Shown: positions 12,128 to 42,295, numbered from the stretch's first letter. The stretch is DNA of 64,000 nucleotides from Nitrosopumilus sp. (GCA_965203315.1 OZ241857.1:1408001-1472000); one strand, 5' to 3'. The notes: generated from the letters alone by a model not told the origin. Made by a program: numbers and translations.

Positions 12128-13362
12128 CAGTTAACGCAAATGTGCCTCTTCCTCGAGGTGAATGTTTGGTGGTGGCCACATTTCCATAAATTTATTTACA
12201 AATTGTTCAAGTTTCTTTTTAAATCCGTACTGCGAAATTTGTCTGCCATTCACATAAAACATATCATTCTTTTTTCGTGGATTGCGTGCGATTATCCACC
12301 CATTATAAATCGCCGAACTTAGTATATACATGAGTTTTCTCACTCTGTGATCCCTACTTGATGTTTTTAGTTTGAATCTATCAACACTGCGATATCCTGT
12401 TTCGATAATCCATCTCTTTTTGTACTTGTCAATGTTAATTCGTGCATTGTTTGTCGCAAATGCAATATATCCAGACTCGGTTCTAGTACTCTCTTCAATG
12501 ATCATCGAATACTCTGCAGCGAGACCTTTCTTTCGGTTTTTCATCGTGCGTTTTGATACTCGTTTATATTTTCCTTTACCGAATTCTCGAATACATTTTT
12601 TGACTGGAATACTTTCTTTGCAAGGCATGAGATAAGTCAAATGTCTTCTGTTAAACAGATCAATCACTTCTGTTATGCAGAACTCTTTATCTAGTGTGAA
12701 TGTGCCTGGATTTATCCCAAATTTCTTGGCTTTTCCGAGGATTTTACGTATACAATCAACGTTTGTGTCTTCGTCTGACATGCTAAATATTGCAAACACT
12801 ATTGATGACCCGTTGATGGTGATTTGAGCTGTGATGTGTTTTTGATACTGGCATGTCTTCTTGTCAATCTTACCATGATGCAGATAATCACTTTCTGTTT
12901 TATCGAACCTCAGATCCTTGTGTATATCTATTGCAATGTCTTGAACACTAGGCCAACGCCCCTTGCGTTTTAATATTCTAATTTGTTCCTTAACTACCCT
13001 ATCAAACATTGCTGCTGGATCACATTCATTTACCATTTTTATGAATAATGTTCTAACCCATTCACCAGTAGGCATACCATTGTCTTTATTATTATTTGCA
13101 ACATCTGCAATATTTGCTTTTGACATTATCGACTTAAACAAGAGAGAAAAAACTGTAGAAGTACCATACATGGCATTGTAATTTTGTGATATTGGAAAAG
13201 ATATTTCGGTTAACCATTTTGTAATTTTATTATCTTCAATGTATTTTGCAAACTTTCGTTCATATTTTTCAATTTGATTTTGCAATGGTTATTGATTTTT
13301 AATACCCTTTATAGATCTTTCTATTTTTGTTTATAGGTTTAAGATCACATTTGCGTTAACTG
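12128..13362. mobile_element. ISH3/IS4-like insertion sequence
   Basis: Perfect 17 bp TIR cagttaacgcaaatgtg; 5 bp target duplication AATAG (12123-12127, 13363-13367). Confidence 0.92.
12131..13285 (-). CDS. DDE transposase, ISH3/IS4 type
   Basis: IAIDIH, TLDKEF, YKKRWIIETGYR (YREK-like); stop codon lies inside the TIR. Confidence 0.9.
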   Translation of the reverse strand: MQNQIEKYERKFAKYIEDNKITKWLTEISFPISQNYNAMYGTSTVFSLLFKSIMSKANIADVANNNKDNGMPTGEWVRTLFIKMVNECDPAAMFDRVVKEQIRILKRKGRWPSVQDIAIDIHKDLRFDKTESDYLHHGKIDKKTCQYQKHITAQITINGSSIVFAIFSMSDEDTNVDCIRKILGKAKKFGINPGTFTLDKEFCITEVIDLFNRRHLTYLMPCKESIPVKKCIREFGKGKYKRVSKRTMKNRKKGLAAEYSMIIEESTRTESGYIAFATNNARINIDKYKKRWIIETGYRSVDRFKLKTSSRDHRVRKLMYILSSAIYNGWIIARNPRKKNDMFYVNGRQISQYGFKKKLEQFVNKFMEMWPPPNIHLEEEAHLR

Positions 13363-15871: not shown

Positions 15872-15876
15872 TACTC

Positions 15877-16014
15877 TAGTTCTCGGTAAGGGATCTTTTC
15901 GGTTTATGTGAGATGAATGGTTACAGAAAAAGCGCTACAAGATTCTATAAAGGAAAATTATCGAAAAAGCCTTGTGAAAAGATATCCAATGTAAATCGAA
16001 GAGATCCTGCGAGA
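15877..16014. mobile_element. Degenerate MITE family F
   Basis: Imperfect IR ggatcttttcggttta / taaatcgaagagatcc; a related end recurs at 16554. Confidence 0.45.
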
Positions 16015-16226
16015 GGTTCTGTTCAATTGACTGGGGCTCTACACTTTACAATTGTGAAATTTGGAATGAAAACATCCTGATTTGTCTCCAATTTTTCTAA
16101 ATTTAGCAAAATAACGAACATTTTTTGCAATCTGTATCAACAACACAAAAATCTAGGATCAATCGGTTATTAGGTAAAACGTCTAAATTCATGAAAACTG
16201 ATAACTCGTGACAATTGAACAGAACT
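16015..16226. mobile_element. MITE family E (IS6-like ends)
   Basis: 14 bp perfect IR gttctgttcaattg / caattgaacagaac; GGTTCTGTT start resembles IS6-family ends. Confidence 0.65.
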
Positions 16227-16243
16227 CAATAAAACACATCTAT

Positions 16244-16308
16244 AAAAAAGATGGTTACTGCTGTGCTGCAGACTATACCCATTTGTTTGTTTTATTGGGA
16301 GTAACCAA
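16244..16308 (-). ncRNA. Candidate small hairpin RNA complementary to the adjacent tRNA-like gene
   Basis: 8 bp closing stem tggttact/agtaacca, T6 run downstream on minus strand, AT-rich TATA-like box near 16327-16334; carries complements of tRNA 16382-16389 and 16389-16400. Confidence 0.45.
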
Positions 16309-16342
16309 TCTATATAGCATACTACTTAATTTAACTATTACT

Positions 16343-16428
16343 GACAGTGTAGTTTAGATCGGTTAGAACGCCCAACTGAAGATTGGGAGCTGTGCTGCAG
16401 CACGAGGGTTCAAATCCCTCCACTGTCG
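16343..16428 (+). tRNA. Atypical tRNA with GAA (Phe) anticodon, 16-nt variable region and G73
   Basis: Acceptor gacagtg/cactgtc, D-arm gttt-agatcggtta-gaac, anticodon cccaa-ctgaaga-ttggg, variable agctgtgctgcagcac, T-arm gaggg-ttcaaat-ccctc. Confidence 0.85.
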
Positions 16429-16553
16429 TATATGTCTGGATCCAATAACGTTCAACATTCTATTCGACACTATAAGCCAATCATCAAAAGTGAACATATC
16501 TGTTAACACAAATGTGTGTTTCTTGACAAGTATTCTGACCGTATTTGATATAT

Positions 16554-16610
16554 AGGATCTCTTCGATTTATGCGAAATGGAATTTTGACATAAAAAGTAA
16601 TACACTACTT
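16554..16610. repeat. Partial second copy of MITE F end
   Basis: aggatctcttcgattta is the exact reverse complement of the right IR of 15877-16014 and aligns loosely with its left end. Confidence 0.4.
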
Positions 16611-16714
16611 TGACATGTCAAATGATTAGGCGAACTATTCTTCATATACCGCAGTAGCAGAATAACTCTTACATAATCACTTGATTCATAAATACATGTT
16701 TTGGATATTTGTTG

Positions 16715-16900
16715 TTGAGTCTCACACCATCTAAATTGAGAGAACCTAGATGCTCTACAAGTACCGCAGACATATGCTGGTTTTGTCACAAAGGTCGTCA
16801 TGATGACTGTATGTTAGAGATCCCTACATATGCAGAGACCGATGGACCACATGACTGTACATTTGACACAAAGATGATTCCATGCAAGTGTCAACACTAG
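16715..16900 (+). CDS. Small Cys/His-rich hypothetical protein (possible metal binder)
   Basis: CWFCHKGRHDDC...HDC...CKCQH; abuts methyltransferase gene. Confidence 0.6.
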   Translation: MSLTPSKLREPRCSTSTADICWFCHKGRHDDCMLEIPTYAETDGPHDCTFDTKMIPCKCQH

Positions 16901-17541: not shown

Positions 17542-20500
17542 GTGAGTGATCAAGAGACCAATCAAAAAAAGTTAACCAAAAACTACAAACACTATCAAGA
17601 CAAACTCTTACAAGTCACAAAGCGAAATCGTTCTGTCCTTCTCAAAAGAATTTACACCAAACATAACTTTGATCTAAAACAATTGGATGATCTAAAAGAT
17701 GGCACCGTAAATAAAATACTCTTAAAGGCAATTAAAAATATCAGCGCGTCTATCGATGATAAAATAGACGAAGGCAAGTTACAGAATATTCTCTCGGACT
17801 CGATCGAAGCCGAGTCTGCTGATTCGATGCGATCTAAATTAAACTCTCTAAAGAGAAATCTTGTATTAATTGAAGAAGAGACTGGACAGCAGACCGGTTA
17901 TCTAGGATTTCCGTTTCTCGAAGGTCATATAGATCCAGACTTTTATGTTAGAGGACCAATCGTCTTGTTTCCAATATCGATAGAGTATATCAGACGATCA
18001 AGAAATAGCGGTTGGTTCTTGCGTCTTGAGGATAGACGACCGATACTAAACGGTGCATTGATTGTAGCACTCAAGAAGAGAGGAGGATACACACTACCAG
18101 AAGACTATGAAGAGACGTTTGATGAGATGATCGAGAGTATCCCCAAATCTACAGATCAAAGTACATTCTTTGATATGATAAACGAGTGGGTCAAGACATT
18201 GATCCCTATACAAGACACACTAAATGTACCCGAGAGTGTAAAGCTTGACACATTAAGTAAAGAGAGACTATCGACTCTAGATACACAAAAGTATCATCTG
18301 GTCAACTATACAATAATAGGAAACTTTCCACAAGCAGATAATCAGATATACAAAGACTATAACAAATTGATCGAAGATGCTAATCCAGGCCAAGTAGTAT
18401 CAAATCTATTAGATATTGTAGACGATATCACACATACAGATGAGATCGATGATCCATATACAGACGAGTATGATCCTGATACAAAAATAAACGGCAACGA
18501 TATGCTCCTAAACCTAGCACTCCCAAGTGACTCTAGTCAAGATCAGGTAATTCTAGAATCAAAGAGTTCAGATCTAGTAGTTGTGCGAGGACCGCCAGGC
18601 ACAGGCAAGTCTCAAGTTATAGTAAATCTCGTAACAGATGCATTATGCAACAATAGACGAGTTGCAGTGATATGTCAGAAACGTGCTGCACTCCAAGTCG
18701 TTAAACAGAGATTGGGAAAGATCGGATTAGATCAGTACGTGGTATTTTTAGGAAAAGAGTCAGATGATAGAAGAAAGATGTATCAACAGTTACATGATAT
18801 TATCATGAGAGATCCAGAACCGATATCTAGTTCTGAGAAGACGATTCAAGATATCTCAAATGATATAGACAATTGCATAAAGTACCTAGTAGATATCGGA
18901 ACTGCACTAGTACGAGAGTACGATGGCGCAACTGCACACAAGATATACTCTAAAGCAGATGGCAAGTACAAACGTGTACTAGATATCTCTGATCTCAATC
19001 TAGAGTGGAAAAGGTTGGACAGATACATACAAGATATCGCAGATGTTGAGGATCAGTTTAAAAGATTTGAAGACCAATCTCACCCGTGGTTTGGTAGAAT
19101 AAACTTTACAGATATTGGTATATTGGAGAGAGACGAGATGATAAGAGATCTAGAGTATCTCCTAGAGATCACTCCCAAGTGTATACTTGTACAAGATCAA
19201 AAACTTCAGATACGTTTAGAGTCACTCTTTGACACATATCTCAATGATCCTGGCTTTTTAAAGTTCAGACGGCGAGGAGCAAAAAAGGAGATCAAGAGTA
19301 TAATGTCTCGTGATATTACAGATCAGTTTGTAGCAGAGTCGTTTGACAAGATCAAGAGTGGTATAAAATTTTGGAGGCGATTTGAGAGACTATTAGGGAG
19401 GTTTGGTGATGATAGAGCAGATGTGTTACGATCTCATATAGGTACAGATACTCTGACATCTAGACTTACAAAGATGAGAGAGACACTTGATCAGTTTGAT
19501 GCCATGCAAGAGTTTGATAAAAAAAAGTTGGAATACGACAAATCGATATTTGCACTGTTATCTCAAGCAAAGACTCGTATGAGTATGGACTCTAGCTGGG
19601 CTCCAAATATCAGACAAGAGATATACATACATTGGCTCGCACATATCGAACGAGAGAATCCAATTCTAAAAGGTGAACCTAAAGCCAACTATGAATCACA
19701 TAGAATGAGACTTGCAGAACTGATGGACGAGAAACAAAAGATAGTCATAAAGACCATAACACGAAACATAGTAGGAAGAATAAGACAGAATGATATCTAT
19801 GGACGAAAGACTAGAGCCAATCAAAAGTTAAAAGACTTTGTAACAGAGTTGAAGCGCAAACGCAAAGTGAAACCTGTTAGAAGATTGTTTGAAGAGTACT
19901 CTAAACAGATGTTTCAAATTGCACCCTGCTGGCTGTTGTCACCAGAGATGGTCTCCAAGGTATTTCCATTAGAGAGAGATCTATTTGATCTCGTAATAGT
20001 AGACGAAGCTAGTCAGCTTGCAGTAGAGAGATCCATACCGTTTATTCATAGAGCGAAACATGTGGTTATTGCTGGAGATGAGAAACAACTCTCTCCATTT
20101 GATCTCTTTCAGATCAGTGAAGACGAAGATGAAGACGACGAGATAGTGATAGAAAAGAGTCTGCTAGAACTTGCTAGAACTAGATACAAGACCACCAATC
20201 TCAGTTGGCATTATCGATCCAGGTATCAAGAGTTGATAGACTTTTCAAATCATGCCTTTTACAATGGACTGCTAAACGTTGCACCAAATGTGATGATATC
20301 TCCCCCACGCCCTCCAATTCGATTCATAAAATGTAATGGAGTGTGGGAGAATCGCAGTAATATTGTTGAAGCAGAACGAATAGTAGACGAGATAAAGAGT
20401 ATCTTGAGGAACAGCAGAGATCTGGGAGAGGAGTATCCATCGATCGGCGTTATAACCTTTGGTGATGAACAACGTGATATAATAGACGATAACATCAACA

Positions 20501-21249
20501 AGATGCAGTATAACGATCCAGAGTTTGCAGAGATGTACAATACTGCATATGCCAATGCAGATAAAGACGACAGACTCTTTGTAAGAAATATCGAGAACGT
20601 TCAAGGTGACGAACGTGACGTAATAATCTTCTCGATCGGATACGCGAGAGATCATGATGGAAACTTTGCAAACAGATTTGGAACCCTTAGTGTAAAGGGA
20701 GGAGAGAATAGACTAAACGTAGCAATAACTAGGGCAAGACGTTCCATGATTGTGGTATCTTCCATCGAGCCTCAAGAGATCAAAGAGACATCAAAGAACG
20801 ATGGACCTAGACTGTTACGTAAATTTTTAGAGTATGCAAAGATGGTCGATAGCCTCGATACAAAGGGCAAGGAGAGGATTCTCGGTGAGATCATACCAGA
20901 CATGCCGAGAAGACAAGAGGAGACGATCTTTGACTCAGAGTTTGAGAAAGAGGTCTGTCAGCGTTTGAGAGAGAATGGCTATGAAGTGGATACACAGATT
21001 GGGTCTTCTGGTTATAGAATAGATCTCTGCATAGTACACCCCAACGATCCCAAACGTTATGTCCTCGGTGTAGAGTGTGATGGTGCAACGTTTCATTCTG
21101 CAAAGAGCGTAAAAGAGAGAGATGTGATGCGACAGAGATTTCTAGAAGACAAGGGTTGGCATATTGAGAGGATTTGGAGTAGCAACTGGTGGAGAGATCC
21201 GGAACGAGAGATATCTAGGATCAAGACTGTTATTGATGGTCTTTTATGA
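17542..21249 (+). CDS. DUF4011 + Upf1/Dna2-like SF1 helicase + C-terminal restriction-endonuclease/Vsr-like domain
   Basis: N-term KLLQVTKRNR...EETG...YLGFPF; GPPGTGKS, VDEASQ, GDEKQL, HYRS, ENVQGDERD, RLNVAITRAR; C-term DSEFE...RIDL...VECDGATFH...RQRFLE..GW..ERIWS. Confidence 0.88.
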   Translation: MSDQETNQKKLTKNYKHYQDKLLQVTKRNRSVLLKRIYTKHNFDLKQLDDLKDGTVNKILLKAIKNISASIDDKIDEGKLQNILSDSIEAESADSMRSKLNSLKRNLVLIEEETGQQTGYLGFPFLEGHIDPDFYVRGPIVLFPISIEYIRRSRNSGWFLRLEDRRPILNGALIVALKKRGGYTLPEDYEETFDEMIESIPKSTDQSTFFDMINEWVKTLIPIQDTLNVPESVKLDTLSKERLSTLDTQKYHLVNYTIIGNFPQADNQIYKDYNKLIEDANPGQVVSNLLDIVDDITHTDEIDDPYTDEYDPDTKINGNDMLLNLALPSDSSQDQVILESKSSDLVVVRGPPGTGKSQVIVNLVTDALCNNRRVAVICQKRAALQVVKQRLGKIGLDQYVVFLGKESDDRRKMYQQLHDIIMRDPEPISSSEKTIQDISNDIDNCIKYLVDIGTALVREYDGATAHKIYSKADGKYKRVLDISDLNLEWKRLDRYIQDIADVEDQFKRFEDQSHPWFGRINFTDIGILERDEMIRDLEYLLEITPKCILVQDQKLQIRLESLFDTYLNDPGFLKFRRRGAKKEIKSIMSRDITDQFVAESFDKIKSGIKFWRRFERLLGRFGDDRADVLRSHIGTDTLTSRLTKMRETLDQFDAMQEFDKKKLEYDKSIFALLSQAKTRMSMDSSWAPNIRQEIYIHWLAHIERENPILKGEPKANYESHRMRLAELMDEKQKIVIKTITRNIVGRIRQNDIYGRKTRANQKLKDFVTELKRKRKVKPVRRLFEEYSKQMFQIAPCWLLSPEMVSKVFPLERDLFDLVIVDEASQLAVERSIPFIHRAKHVVIAGDEKQLSPFDLFQISEDEDEDDEIVIEKSLLELARTRYKTTNLSWHYRSRYQELIDFSNHAFYNGLLNVAPNVMISPPRPPIRFIKCNGVWENRSNIVEAERIVDEIKSILRNSRDLGEEYPSIGVITFGDEQRDIIDDNINKMQYNDPEFAEMYNTAYANADKDDRLFVRNIENVQGDERDVIIFSIGYARDHDGNFANRFGTLSVKGGENRLNVAITRARRSMIVVSSIEPQEIKETSKNDGPRLLRKFLEYAKMVDSLDTKGKERILGEIIPDMPRRQEETIFDSEFEKEVCQRLRENGYEVDTQIGSSGYRIDLCIVHPNDPKRYVLGVECDGATFHSAKSVKERDVMRQRFLEDKGWHIERIWSSNWWRDPEREISRIKTVIDGLL

Positions 21250-21264
21250 TCGTGATAGTATAGG

Positions 21265-21338
21265 CGGGTCTAGAGGGATTCGAACCCACGACAGCAGGAT
21301 TAAGAGTCCTGTGCGCTACCTGGCTGCGCCATAGACCC
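21265..21338 (-). tRNA. tRNA-Lys(CTT)
   Basis: gggtcta/tagaccc acceptor, cagga-ctcttaa-tcctg anticodon arm, ttcgaat T-loop (one T-stem mismatch). Confidence 0.93.
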
Positions 21339-42208: not shown

Positions 42209-42295
42209 CGGGGAGTAGATTTGAACTACTGATTTGCGGGTTATGAGCCCGCCGGGATGACCTAGTCCTTAATAGTCTGACTTCCCCACCCCGCT
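42206..42295 (-). tRNA. Initiator tRNA-Met(CAT) with ~15 nt intron in the D-loop
   Basis: A1-U72 (agcgggg/ccccgct), G-C-rich anticodon stem gcggg-ctcataa-cccgc, extra sequence (approx. tcagactattaagga) between D-stem halves ggga/tccc. Confidence 0.88.

What the first reader, a model, noticed from the sequence alone, without database searches (positions are those of the whole stretch)
16343..16428. tRNA with Phe anticodon but long variable arm and G73 (identity mismatch)
Seen: all four stems pair, but the variable region is 16 nt (can fold gctg/cagc or gtgc/gcac), the discriminator is G and pair 2:71 is A-U; the D-arm resembles the class I tRNA-Val in this window. Established: archaeal tRNA-Phe normally has a short variable loop and A73; long variable arm plus G73 are serine identity elements. 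I found no bulge-helix-bulge to explain the extra bases as an intron. Inference: could be serylated and read UUU/UUC (programmed mistranslation), serve a non-ribosomal role, or need unusual processing.
Basis: partly seen in the sequence, partly recalled or inferred. Interest (0 to 1): 0.78.

Follow-up and report, generated by a model that had tools for sequence, protein, structure and literature searches.

The report
Spare serine-like tRNA reading phenylalanine codons
An ammonia-oxidising archaeon carries, beside its normal phenylalanine tRNA, an extra strain-specific tRNA that has the phenylalanine anticodon on a body with the marks of a serine tRNA, and similar extra genes turn up in many related genomes, often next to mobile or defence genes.

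Summary
Window 16343-16428 is a strong tRNA (Rfam 60.7 bits) with anticodon GAA, a 16-nt variable region that folds into a fifth arm, G73 and A2-U71. The extra bases are not an intron: a bulge-helix-bulge scan that recovers real introns in this genome finds none here.

It is not the cell's tRNA-Phe. A canonical 75-nt tRNA-Phe (A73) lies elsewhere and is conserved in 36 of 40 same-genus genomes. The odd gene sits in a ~0.85-kb insertion absent from 11 syntenic relatives, between MITE copies, 1.1 kb from an inserted Hhe/PDC-S37-like defence gene. No homologue was found in 400 class genomes or three public collections.

It is not an isolated freak. Long (83-93 nt) GAA tRNAs with class-II bodies and G73 were verified in 17 other genomes of four genera. 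One genome holds ten such genes interleaved with restriction-modification genes. Stems, including the extra arm, covary.

Best reading (about 0.45): an accessory, mobile tRNA with serine-type identity marks, probably serylated, that could put Ser at UUY. Charging and expression are untested. I found no description in print. The closest known are bacterial allo-tRNAs.

The parts
16343..16428 (+). Accessory tRNA gene ('PheA'): anticodon GAA, five-armed cloverleaf, G73, no encoded CCA
   Evidence: Rfam 60.7 bits. ARAGORN. MFE fold is a cloverleaf plus an extra arm. Single copy in the genome.
16378..16380 (+). Anticodon GAA within the loop CTGAAGA (G37)
16388..16403 (+). 16-nt variable region AGCTGTGCTGCAGCAC, forming the extra arm. 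It contains the 12-nt perfect palindrome GTGCTGCAGCAC.
   Evidence: Its helix columns covary with those of nine genes of genome G467.
16428..16428 (+). Discriminator G73
16310..16317 (+). TATA-like box CTATATAG, 33 to 26 nt upstream of the tRNA 5' end (inferred promoter)
   Evidence: The genome's other tRNA genes have A/T boxes at about the same distance. This was read by eye and not tested.
16260..16271 (+). Upstream exact copy of 12 nt of the variable arm (GCTGTGCTGCAG)
   Evidence: These are the only two copies in the 2.47-Mb genome. Meaning unexplained.
15872..16750 (.). About 0.85 kb of intergenic DNA that syntenic relatives lack. There, 40-70 nt separate the aminotransferase from the small Cys-rich ORF and the methyltransferase.
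   Evidence: 11 same-genus loci.
15894..16008 (.). 115-nt MITE copy on the left of the tRNA segment
   Evidence: 114 near-full-length copies in the genome. Its end forms a 17-nt perfect inverted repeat with 16554-16570.
16554..16597 (.). Truncated copy of the same MITE end on the right of the tRNA segment
   Evidence: (repeat edges seen in contigs).
17542..21249 (+). Context: inserted 1235-aa helicase-nuclease gene (DUF4011, AAA_11/12, MTES_1575), absent between the methyltransferase and tRNA-Lys in relatives
   Evidence: Pfam. PADLOC PDC-S37 632.8 bits and Hhe 366.1 bits. Synteny.
21263..21338 (-). Context: tRNA-Lys(CTT), the conserved right-hand anchor of the locus
   Evidence: present in 3 of 11 relatives' loci within the DNA fetched.

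Best explanation
The gene encodes a real, five-armed tRNA that is an accessory to the cell's ordinary tRNA-Phe.

Shown:
- The extra 11 or so bases are a structural variable arm, not an intron.
- The gene lies in strain-specific inserted DNA between MITE copies, beside an inserted defence-type gene.
- The conserved 75-nt tRNA-Phe is elsewhere in the genome.
- tRNA genes of the same kind (GAA anticodon, long arm, G73, mostly class-II bodies) recur patchily in at least 17 other genomes of four genera of this ammonia-oxidiser family. They sit at non-syntenic places and keep their stems through compensatory changes. In 3 of the 7 other contexts examined, genes of the restriction-modification type lie beside them.

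Inferred:
- SerRS ignores the anticodon and reads the long arm plus G73, and this genome has a SerRS with the arm-binding N-terminal domain. The tRNA is therefore most likely serylated, and when expressed could insert Ser at UUU/UUC.
- Its selective value probably lies in conflicts between mobile elements, viruses and host. It could be a translational poison or addiction factor, or a regulated recoder. It is unlikely to serve housekeeping translation.
For: **Real tRNA.**
-.

**Not an intron.**
- The scan ranks the true 17-nt intron of tRNA-Val(CAC) first (helix TGCG/CGCA, mature loop AGGTC). It also finds the splice sites expected for Met, ranked first, and for Tyr, in fifth place.
- In PheA, only 2 of 75 site pairs inside the variable region have a full 4-bp central helix. 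Both lack an outer helix and would leave 7-9-nt loops.

**Accessory.**
- Two GAA genes are present.
- PheB is kept in 36 of 40 same-genus genomes at 80-97% identity.
- PheA was not found in 40 relatives nor in 400 class genomes, 83 of them same genus, where only T-arm hits appeared.
- It lies in a 0.85-kb insertion.

**Serine-like marks.**
- The native Ser arms have the layout 1 + 4 bp + tetraloop + 2 nt, and G73. PheA has 1 + 4/5 bp + loop + AC, and G73.
- A SerRS gene with the Seryl_tRNA_N domain is present, 87.6 bits.
- The SerRS rule is stated in a passage of PMC7609411.

**Recurrence.**
- A pattern search of 101 genus genomes gave 63 matches against 8 for the reversed control. By eye, 24 of the 63, in 15 genomes, are tRNA-like.
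- Verification by ARAGORN and/or Rfam.
- G73 is present in 14 of the 15 intron-free rows.

**Covariation.**
- Alignment A2 (PheA plus 9 G467 genes): 97.1% of cells paired, 15 of 24 pairs changed on both sides, extra-arm helix 3 of 4 pairs.
- Alignment A3 (16 genes): 96.6% paired, 15 of 20 pairs, anticodon stem 5 of 5.

**Context.**
- (G467 island: 7 GAA, 2 GAT and 1 CAG tRNAs among nine methylase- or restriction-type genes).
- (MTase-HNH, Eco57I-like gene, transposase).
- (Hhe/PDC-S37-like gene).
Against: - No charging, expression or processing data exist. No RNA run holds the locus.
- PheA differs from most relatives of its kind. It has a class-I-type D arm (4-bp stem, U8-A9) and the loop CUGAAGA with G37, as in real tRNA-Phe.
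- By sequence it is no closer to the G467 genes (52-58 identical nt) than to its own genome's tRNA-Ser(UGA) (62). Kinship with the other genes therefore rests on shared architecture: G1-C72, A2-U71, C3-G70, G73, the D loop and the arm layout.
- The pattern search asked for GAA, so the excess of GAA over other anticodons is ascertained. The only open-anticodon check covered five genomes including G000.
- A proteome-wide Phe-to-Ser change should be harmful. Seven promoter-bearing copies in one genome are hard to square with free expression.
- The link to defence genes was seen in 4 of 8 contexts, with no background rate.
- PheA is found in one genome only, so it could be young and neutral.
Confidence: 0.45

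Rival explanations
1. Young, neutral or decaying duplicate. A spare tRNA gene picked up an 11-nt templated insertion in its variable loop, copied from the sequence 129 nt upstream, and is now inert or nearly so.
For: - The 12-mer GCTGTGCTGCAG occurs only twice in 2.47 Mb: in the arm and 129 nt upstream.
- 1-2 nt of microhomology at both junctions would fit a template switch (read; inference).
- The gene is unique to this genome.
- The genome is full of repeats and of decayed tRNA-like genes.
Against: - All four standard stems are intact, the universal positions (U8, A14, G18G19, U33, T-loop) are kept, and a TATA-like box lies at the usual distance.
- The inserted bases give exactly the arm layout of native tRNA-Ser and of the G467 genes.
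- Independent genes of the same design exist in 17 other genomes, under structural selection.
Confidence: 0.15
2. Spare phenylalanine tRNA. PheRS reads mainly the GAA anticodon, tolerates the extra arm and G73, and the gene simply adds Phe-decoding capacity, for instance for the A+T-rich genes of a mobile element.
For: - Anticodon GAA, with G37 and the loop CUGAAGA, exactly as in the conserved tRNA-Phe.
- A class-I-type D arm.
Against: - It lacks A73 and G20, both kept in the conserved tRNA-Phe. That these are PheRS identity elements is recalled from work in yeast, human and E. coli and was not tested for this lineage.
- The body shares only 51 of 74 positions with PheB. In the comparison made with 11 nt of the arm left out, PheB was not among its 12 closest tRNAs.
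- The relatives of its kind have full class-II bodies with G73.
Confidence: 0.15
3. tRNA-like element with a role outside translation. It could be a recombination (attachment) site or a structured RNA of mobile elements, used when cassettes such as restriction-modification genes are inserted or exchanged.
For: - Ten such genes, all on one strand and with conserved flanks, alternate with methylase and restriction genes over about 50 kb in G467.
- Flanks of the other genes are not syntenic.
- Neighbours include a transposase and a weak integrase match.
- Thaumarchaeal integrated elements use tRNA genes in 39 of 68 cases, have att sites of 8-26 bp and often carry R-M genes (PMC6563490, passages). 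The 12-nt repeat here is in that size range.
- Many allo-tRNAs are thought not to serve translation (PMC5389517, section 16).
Against: - The genes keep full cloverleaves, anticodon loops with U33, their own TATA-like boxes and T-rich ends. A bare DNA site would not need these.
- No integrase lies beside PheA.
- The two 12-mers are only 129 nt apart, with the spare copy on the 5' side, so they do not bracket an element.
Confidence: 0.15
4. Small intron or other unusual processing removes the extra bases and leaves an ordinary 75-nt tRNA.
For: - The lineage has a two-gene splicing endonuclease. The heterotetramer type cuts non-canonical introns (PMC4090602 passage; PMC5829648 abstract as listed).
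- This genome has a real 17-nt intron at 44/45 in tRNA-Val(CAC).
Against: - No splice-site pair in the variable region has a central helix plus a flanking helix, and none leaves a 4-5-nt loop.
- The bases form a stable hairpin of their own, and that hairpin covaries in related genes.
- G73 and the un-Phe-like body would remain even after removal.
Confidence: 0.05

Closest known systems
Allo-tRNAs of bacteria (Mukai et al. 2017, PMC5389517; abstract and section 16 read. Review PMC7609411, passages read.)
   Same: - Extra tRNAs with serine-type identity (long variable arm) and many non-serine anticodons.
- Found patchily, often beside toxin-antitoxin systems and transposable elements.
- Some insert Ser at sense or stop codons in E. 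coli, while others seem not to be used in translation.
   Different: - Allo-tRNAs are defined by an 8/4 or 9/3 acceptor/T-stem split and come from bacteria and their phages.
- The gene here, and its archaeal analogues, have the standard 7/5 split.
- The neighbours seen here are restriction-modification and Hhe-like genes.
Serine tRNA anticodon variants that put Ser at Phe codons (human tRNA-Ser-AGA-2-3 G35A, PMC12993449; abstract as listed only)
   Same: A serine-identity body with a Phe-reading anticodon. This shows that such a tRNA is charged with Ser and used on the ribosome.
   Different: That case is a point mutant of a normal tRNA-Ser in a eukaryote. Here the genes are separate, diverged and multi-copy in places, and PheA has a class-I-type D arm.
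Archaeal tRNA genes with non-canonical BHB introns (this genome's tRNA-Val(CAC); reviews PMC4090602 and PMC8450103, passages)
   Same: Extra bases at the variable region of a tRNA with a class-I anticodon, in a lineage rich in such introns.
   Different: The Val gene has a proper helix-bulge motif, is the only Val-CAC copy, and yields a normal AGGTC loop. PheA has no such motif, and its extra bases form an arm.
tRNA genes at the edges of integrated mobile elements in Thaumarchaeota (Krupovic et al. 2019, PMC6563490; passages read)
   Same: tRNA genes associated with mobile DNA that carries restriction-modification cargo, and with short direct repeats.
   Different: Those are ordinary host tRNA genes used as targets. 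Here the tRNA itself is unusual, accessory and non-syntenic.

Membership tests
Canonical archaeal tRNA-Phe | Anticodon GAA with purine 37 | tested here: met
   Loop CTGAAGA.
Canonical archaeal tRNA-Phe | Class-I body with a 4-5-nt variable loop | tested here: not met
   The variable region is 16 nt and forms a hairpin. The conserved tRNA-Phe has 5 nt.
Canonical archaeal tRNA-Phe | A73 and G20, as kept in the lineage's own tRNA-Phe | tested here: not met
   PheA has G73 and U at position 20 by my numbering. PheB and its orthologues have A73 and GGGAG in the D loop. Their role as PheRS identity elements is recalled, not tested.
Canonical archaeal tRNA-Phe | Vertical conservation in relatives | tested here: not met
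   PheA was found in 0 of 40 genomes and 0 of 400. PheB was found in 36 of 40.
tRNA-Ser (class II) | Long variable arm with the native layout | tested here: met
   Native Ser: 1 nt + 4 bp + tetraloop + 2 nt, 15 nt in all, in 4 of 4 genes. PheA: 1 + 4/5 bp + 5/3-nt loop + AC, 16 nt.
tRNA-Ser (class II) | G73 | tested here: met
   The four native Ser also have G73.
tRNA-Ser (class II) | Serine anticodon | tested here: not met
   The anticodon is GAA.
tRNA-Ser (class II) | Class-II D arm (3-bp stem, U8-C9 in this genome) | tested here: not met
   PheA has U8-A9 and a 4-bp D stem. Native Ser and Leu have TC and GCC/GGC.
tRNA-Ser (class II) | Charged by SerRS | not testable with these tools
   A SerRS gene with the arm-binding domain is present.
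Intron-containing archaeal tRNA | Bulge-helix-bulge, or a relaxed form, around the extra bases, leaving a normal mature tRNA | tested here: not met
   The same script recovers the introns of Val-CAC, Met and Tyr.
Allo-tRNA (Mukai 2017) | 8/4 or 9/3 acceptor/T-stem arrangement | tested here: not met
   The arrangement is 7/5.
Allo-tRNA (Mukai 2017) | Serine-type arm with a non-serine anticodon; patchy, near selfish or defence genes | tested here: met
Accessory long-arm GAA tRNAs of this archaeal family (group defined here) | GAA anticodon, variable arm of 14-21 nt, G73, intact cloverleaf, additional to a canonical tRNA-Phe, not syntenic | tested here: met
   PheA. Group.
Accessory long-arm GAA tRNAs of this archaeal family (group defined here) | Common descent with the other members | tested here: inconclusive
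   PheA shares G1-C72, A2-U71, C3-G70, G73, the D loop AGATyGGTwA and the arm layout with the G467 genes. Sequence identity is only 52-58 nt, no better than to its own tRNA-Ser (62).

The most novel reading that the evidence does not exclude
Ammonia-oxidising archaea carry, on mobile restriction-modification and defence islands, a class of serine-accepting tRNAs that read phenylalanine codons (and in one genome isoleucine codons). These would be kept silent or in check, and released to corrupt translation. They could act as an abortive-infection weapon against viruses, or as an addiction factor that stabilises the island. PheA would be this strain's copy, beside its Hhe-like gene.
Probability: 0.15. 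Interest if true: 0.9.

Novelty: new variant of a known kind. Interest (0 to 1): 0.66.

Why it matters
- If these tRNAs are serylated and used, they would be natural missense tRNAs in Archaea, where none has been described to my knowledge. They would also give a testable link between mobile defence islands and deliberate corruption of the genetic code.
- If they are not used in translation, they are a new kind of tRNA-shaped element of archaeal mobile DNA.
- In either case they will be annotated as ordinary tRNA-Phe by anticodon-based tools. That miscounts the tRNA sets of a globally important group of nitrifiers.
- Their 7/5 five-armed scaffolds could also interest people who engineer orthogonal tRNAs.

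Tried and rejected
- **RNA evidence.** No RNA holder was listed for window 15900-16900. One possible RNA run laid nothing. This says nothing about expression.
- **Donor search.**
  - Anticodon-arm to T-arm patterns, strict and loose, gave 0 hits in genome contigs, metagenome contigs and viral contigs.
  - The arm 24-mer gave 0 hits in viral contigs.
  - The D-arm 21-mer gave 0 viral hits and 3 metagenome contigs. Those are tRNA-Ile(GAT) genes in tRNA arrays with encoded CCA, unlike PheA elsewhere, so I treat them as coincidence.
- **Viral carriage of the related genes.** A 16-mer and a 17-mer gave 19 and 7 viral contigs. ARAGORN finds no tRNA in the 23 loci L115-L137. In L138-L140 the 17-mer lies within tRNA-Glu(TTC) genes. 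By my rough estimate these numbers are what chance gives. A longer pattern gave 0.
- **A BHB built on the anticodon stem itself** (top hit for PheA). It would cut out the anticodon and leave no foldable arm, so I rejected it.
- **Pattern hits of the form CTGAAAAGATATCTTGAGG...** in about a dozen genomes. They have no T stem and no ARAGORN call, so they are not tRNAs.
- **Hits in the other family f19** (G058, G063, G071). The one I parsed (G058) is a canonical tRNA-Phe with a roughly 12-nt intron after position 38. The other two have near-identical matched strings. I excluded all three.
- **The 8-mer ATTGGGAG shared with the leader.** It is at shuffle level once the 12-mer is masked.
- **nhmmer with the 'tRNA-like plus leader' family.** It does not hit PheA.
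- **The earlier-findings tool.** It was closed.
- **Supplements of papers.** They were closed. Table S2 of PMC6563490 and the supplement of PMC5389517 might list similar tRNAs.

Full report
**1. What is there**

ARAGORN and Rfam both call a tRNA at window 16343-16428 on the + strand. Rfam RF00005 gives 60.7 bits against a gathering score of 29, over the whole model. Read from the sequence:
- The acceptor stem GACAGTG/CACTGTC has seven Watson-Crick pairs, with A2-U71.
- The D stem has four pairs.
- The anticodon arm is CCCAA-CTGAAGA-TTGGG, with anticodon GAA.
- The T arm is GAGGG-TTCAAAT-CCCTC.
- The discriminator is G.

Between the anticodon stem and the T stem lie 16 nt, AGCTGTGCTGCAGCAC. In the minimum-free-energy fold they form a fifth arm with one free base on the 5' side and two (AC) on the 3' side. 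Contigs from three runs of two studies carry exactly this sequence, so it is not an assembly error.

**2. The extra bases are not an intron**

The genome encodes an archaeal AmoA, so it is an ammonia-oxidising archaeon. It has two splicing-endonuclease genes. A passage of a review (PMC4090602) gives the heterotetrameric type for Thaumarchaeota. An abstract seen in a search listing (PMC5829648) says this type cuts non-canonical introns. A small intron was therefore a serious candidate.

I wrote a scan for the bulge-helix-bulge geometry: a 4-bp central helix, 3-nt bulges, and a cut after the second bulge base. The geometry is recalled from memory.
- On this genome's own genes the scan ranks first a 17-nt intron at 44/45 of the only tRNA-Val(CAC). 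Its helix is TGCG/CGCA and the mature loop is AGGTC.
- It also finds the expected sites in tRNA-Met, ranked first, and in tRNA-Tyr, in fifth place.
- In PheA, only 2 of the 75 site pairs that lie within the variable region have a full central helix. Both lack any flanking helix and would leave loops of 7-9 nt.
- The scan's overall top hit for PheA is the anticodon stem itself. I rejected it, because cutting there would remove the anticodon.

**3. It is not the cell's tRNA-Phe**

The genome has a second GAA gene, PheB, at contig 1:1784347-1784421. It is 75 nt long, with a 5-nt variable loop and A73.
- PheB is found in 36 of 40 other genomes of the genus at 80-97% identity, full-length or nearly so in 35 of them.
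- PheA shares 51 of 74 positions with PheB.
- PheA has no counterpart in 24 same-genus and 16 same-order genomes.
- It has no counterpart in 400 genomes of the class, 83 of them same genus. Only T-arm matches appeared there. That set includes one unpublished genome, G390.
- Patterns spanning its anticodon and T arms gave no hit in the genome, metagenome or viral collections.

**4. Where it sits**

In 11 same-genus loci the class IV aminotransferase is followed after 40-70 nt by a small Cys-rich ORF and a methyltransferase. In three of them tRNA-Lys(CTT) comes next. In this genome two blocks are inserted.
- The first is about 0.85 kb (15872-16750) and holds PheA.
- The second is the 1235-aa helicase-nuclease gene at 17542-21249. 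It matches the PADLOC models PDC-S37 (632.8 bits) and Hhe (366.1 bits).
- PheA lies between a 115-nt MITE (15894-16008; 114 near-full copies in the genome) and a truncated copy of the same MITE at 16554-16597. The facing ends form a 17-nt perfect inverted repeat.
- PheA, its 117-nt leader and most of the flank are single-copy.
- A TATA-like box, CTATATAG, lies 33-26 nt upstream, where other tRNA genes of the genome have theirs (read by eye).

**5. The marks of a serine tRNA**

The four tRNA-Ser of this genome all have G73. They also share a variable arm built as one free base, a 4-bp stem, a tetraloop and two free bases (AC in three, GC in one), 15 nt in all. The tRNA-Leu have A73 and a different layout.
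- PheA has the Ser layout, with a stem or loop one base longer, and G73.
- The genome has a SerRS with the N-terminal arm domain.
- Against a simple serine body, PheA has U8-A9 and a 4-bp D stem, as class-I tRNAs do, where the native Ser and Leu have U8-C9 and 3 bp.

**6. The same design recurs in relatives**

I searched 100 other genomes of the genus for a GAA anticodon loop followed at long-arm distance by a T loop.
- There were 63 matches in 42 of 101 genomes, against 8 for the reversed pattern.
- About a dozen belong to a conserved stretch that is not a tRNA.
- By eye, 24 matches in 15 genomes, PheA among them, are tRNA-like.

Verification:
- ARAGORN calls tRNA-Phe(gaa) of 83-93 nt in 4 of the first 6 such loci tested and in 15 of 20 more.
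- Rfam passes its threshold in 3 of 6 and in 14 of 20. One of the 14 is an ordinary intron-bearing tRNA-Phe of another family, which I excluded.
- A class-wide draw of 200 genomes gave matches in 26 genomes, against 13 control hits.
- Verified cases lie in three further genera of the same family.
- In all, 17 genomes other than G000, in four genera, hold at least one verified gene.
- Several of these genomes also have the canonical tRNA-Phe: G007, G009, G014, G015, G052 and G055.

The commonest type has these features:
- Acceptor GTCAGGG.
- U8-C9.
- D arm GCC...GGC.
- Loop YUGAAAA.
- An arm of 14-21 nt.
- G73 in 14 of the 15 intron-free rows.

In 16 genes of this type:
- 96.6% of stem cells are paired.
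- 15 of 20 pairs change on both sides.
- All five anticodon-stem pairs covary.

One gene, in G092, is a near-typical tRNA-Ser body with the loop CUGAAGA.

Flanks are not homologous between species.

**7. One genome holds an array**

In G467, a 60-kb stretch holds nine Rfam-positive tRNAs (29-63 bits).
- By pattern it holds seven GAA, two GAU and one CAG genes, all on one strand and sharing the anticodon stem.
- The seven GAA genes have conserved leaders with a TATA-like box, and T-rich ends.
- Their arms are A/U + GUGC + loop + GCAC + AC. The same stem is found in that genome's own tRNA-Ser(UGA).

Aligned with PheA:
- 97.1% of stem cells pair.
- 15 of 24 pairs change on both sides.
- Three of the four arm pairs covary.
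- PheA itself supplies part of these changes.

PheA shares with these genes:
- G1-C72, A2-U71 and C3-G70.
- G73.
- The D loop AGATyGGTwA.
- The arm layout.

By sequence it is no nearer to them (52-58 identical nt) than to its own tRNA-Ser(UGA) (62).

The genes between the tRNAs are mostly of the restriction-modification kind:
- Five N6_N4 methylases.
- A C5 methylase.
- An MmeI-like gene.
- Two Eco57I-like genes.
- A HaeIII-type endonuclease.
- A secretion-type ATPase.
- A transposase.

Elsewhere:
- One gene lies beside a methylase-HNH fusion and a transposase.
- One lies beside an Eco57I-like gene.
- One lies near a weak integrase match, below Pfam's cut-off.
- One lies beside a core GTPase.
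- Two lie beside small ORFs without matches.

Counting PheA, 4 of 8 contexts hold defence-type genes. I have no background rate for comparison.

**8. What I conclude, and how firmly**

Shown:
- It is a real five-armed tRNA gene.
- It is not intron-bearing.
- It is additional to the conserved tRNA-Phe.
- It sits in strain-specific inserted DNA.
- It is of a design that recurs, under structural selection, in related genomes.

Inferred:
- It is charged by SerRS and could read UUU/UUC as Ser.
- Its value lies in conflicts involving mobile DNA.

Not known: expression, processing, charging, use on the ribosome.

Three points weaken the inference.
- The GAA bias is partly built into my search. The open-anticodon check covered five genomes including G000. 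Beyond Ser and Leu it found only GAA in three of them, plus GAU and CAG in G467. In G000 it found PheA and one decayed GUC tRNA-like gene.
- Seven expressed Ser-tRNA(GAA) genes should be toxic.
- PheA's D arm and G37 look Phe-like.

The rivals are:
- A young, inert duplicate with a templated insertion.
- A tolerated spare tRNA-Phe.
- A tRNA-shaped recombination or regulatory element.
- Unconventional processing.

I give them 0.15, 0.15, 0.15 and 0.05.

**9. The unexplained repeat**

Twelve bases of the arm (GCTGTGCTGCAG) recur exactly at 16260-16271. These are the only two copies in the genome.
- The flanking likeness is at shuffle level.
- Possible readings are the trace of a template switch that made or converted the arm, or a short att-like scar. 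Thaumarchaeal att sites are 8-26 bp long (PMC6563490 passage).
- I could not decide between them.
- A separate family of at least five decayed tRNA-like genes in this genome shows a clearer version of the same theme. Each has a leader that repeats, in permuted order, its own variable region and the 5' half of its anticodon arm, and these copies covary between paralogues.
- That family is not found in 120 other genomes of the taxonomic family.

**10. Comparison with what is known**

- The nearest described things are bacterial allo-tRNAs: serine-type arms, many anticodons, neighbours that are toxin-antitoxin genes or transposons, and some members inactive in translation (PMC5389517, abstract and section 16). 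They are defined by 8/4 or 9/3 stems, which these genes lack.
- A human tRNA-Ser variant shows that a Ser body with a Phe-reading anticodon does put Ser at Phe codons (PMC12993449, abstract as listed).

Searches for a description of such tRNAs in archaea:
- Nitrosopumilus + variable arm + tRNA, 0 papers.
- the 10 papers listed, of 21 that held the terms.
- the 10 listed, of 60.
- the 8 listed, of 17.

None of the papers listed describes them. Supplements were closed and could hold relevant tables.

Noticed in passing
G000 contigs: C5:238679-238937(+), C1:1671716-1671975(-), C1:192600-192855(-), C1:610759-611011(-), C1:1217715-1217979(+); outside the window: A genome-specific family of at least 5 'tRNA-like gene plus leader' units. 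Anticodon loops read GCC or GUC, some with C33. Arms are 12-13 nt, and the two members read at the 3' end have A73. About 45-34 nt upstream, each unit repeats its own anticodon-stem 5' strand and loop, preceded by a copy of its variable region. These copies covary between paralogues. The family was not found in 120 other genomes of the taxonomic family.
   Followed up: partly
G000 C5:163333-163424 (outside the window): The only tRNA-Val(CAC) carries a 17-nt intron at 44/45 with a clean helix-bulge motif (TGCG-TAA ... CGCA-AAG). It served as the positive control for the intron scan.
   Followed up: yes
window 17542-21249: A 1235-aa DUF4011/SF1-helicase/MTES_1575 nuclease gene is inserted between the methyltransferase and tRNA-Lys(CTT). 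Relatives lack it there. It matches PADLOC PDC-S37 and Hhe.
   Followed up: partly
window 15894-16008 and genome-wide: The genome is crowded with MITE-like repeats. One is a 115-nt family with 114 near-full copies. Another, of about 140 nt, has many tens of copies. There are also several IS ends, and a DDE transposase gene at window 12131-13285.
   Followed up: partly
window 16016-16029 / 16212-16225: A 14-nt perfect inverted repeat (GTTCTGTTCAATTG) bounds a 210-nt segment. Of 6 BLAST hits, 5 copies of its left end (22-24 nt) lie elsewhere in the genome. By eye, its right arm also lies 36 nt upstream of a tRNA-Asp gene (C1:718538).
   Followed up: no
window 16751-16900: A small Cys-rich ORF (CWFC...C...C..C motif) upstream of the methyltransferase is conserved in all 11 relatives' loci. 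Pfam was not run on it.
   Followed up: no
G467:C2:172000-232000 (another species of the genus): An island of about ten class-II-like tRNA genes (7 GAA, 2 GAU, 1 CAG) alternates with methylase- and restriction-type genes. It looks like a cassette array with tRNA genes as spacers.
   Followed up: partly
window 42214-42271 (-) and G000 C1:1406350-1406421 (-), C1:170835-170909 (-): Further weak or odd tRNA-like matches: 24.9 bits, 39.9 bits, and a 33-bit gene to which ARAGORN assigns a four-base anticodon (tcgt). Not examined.
   Followed up: no
G000 tRNA set: ARAGORN finds no Trp, Glu(UUC), Leu(UAA), Arg(CCU/CCG) or Gln(CUG) genes. They are probably hidden by multiple or non-canonical introns. 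Extra copies exist for Asp(GUC) (3) and Gly(GCC) (2).
   Followed up: no
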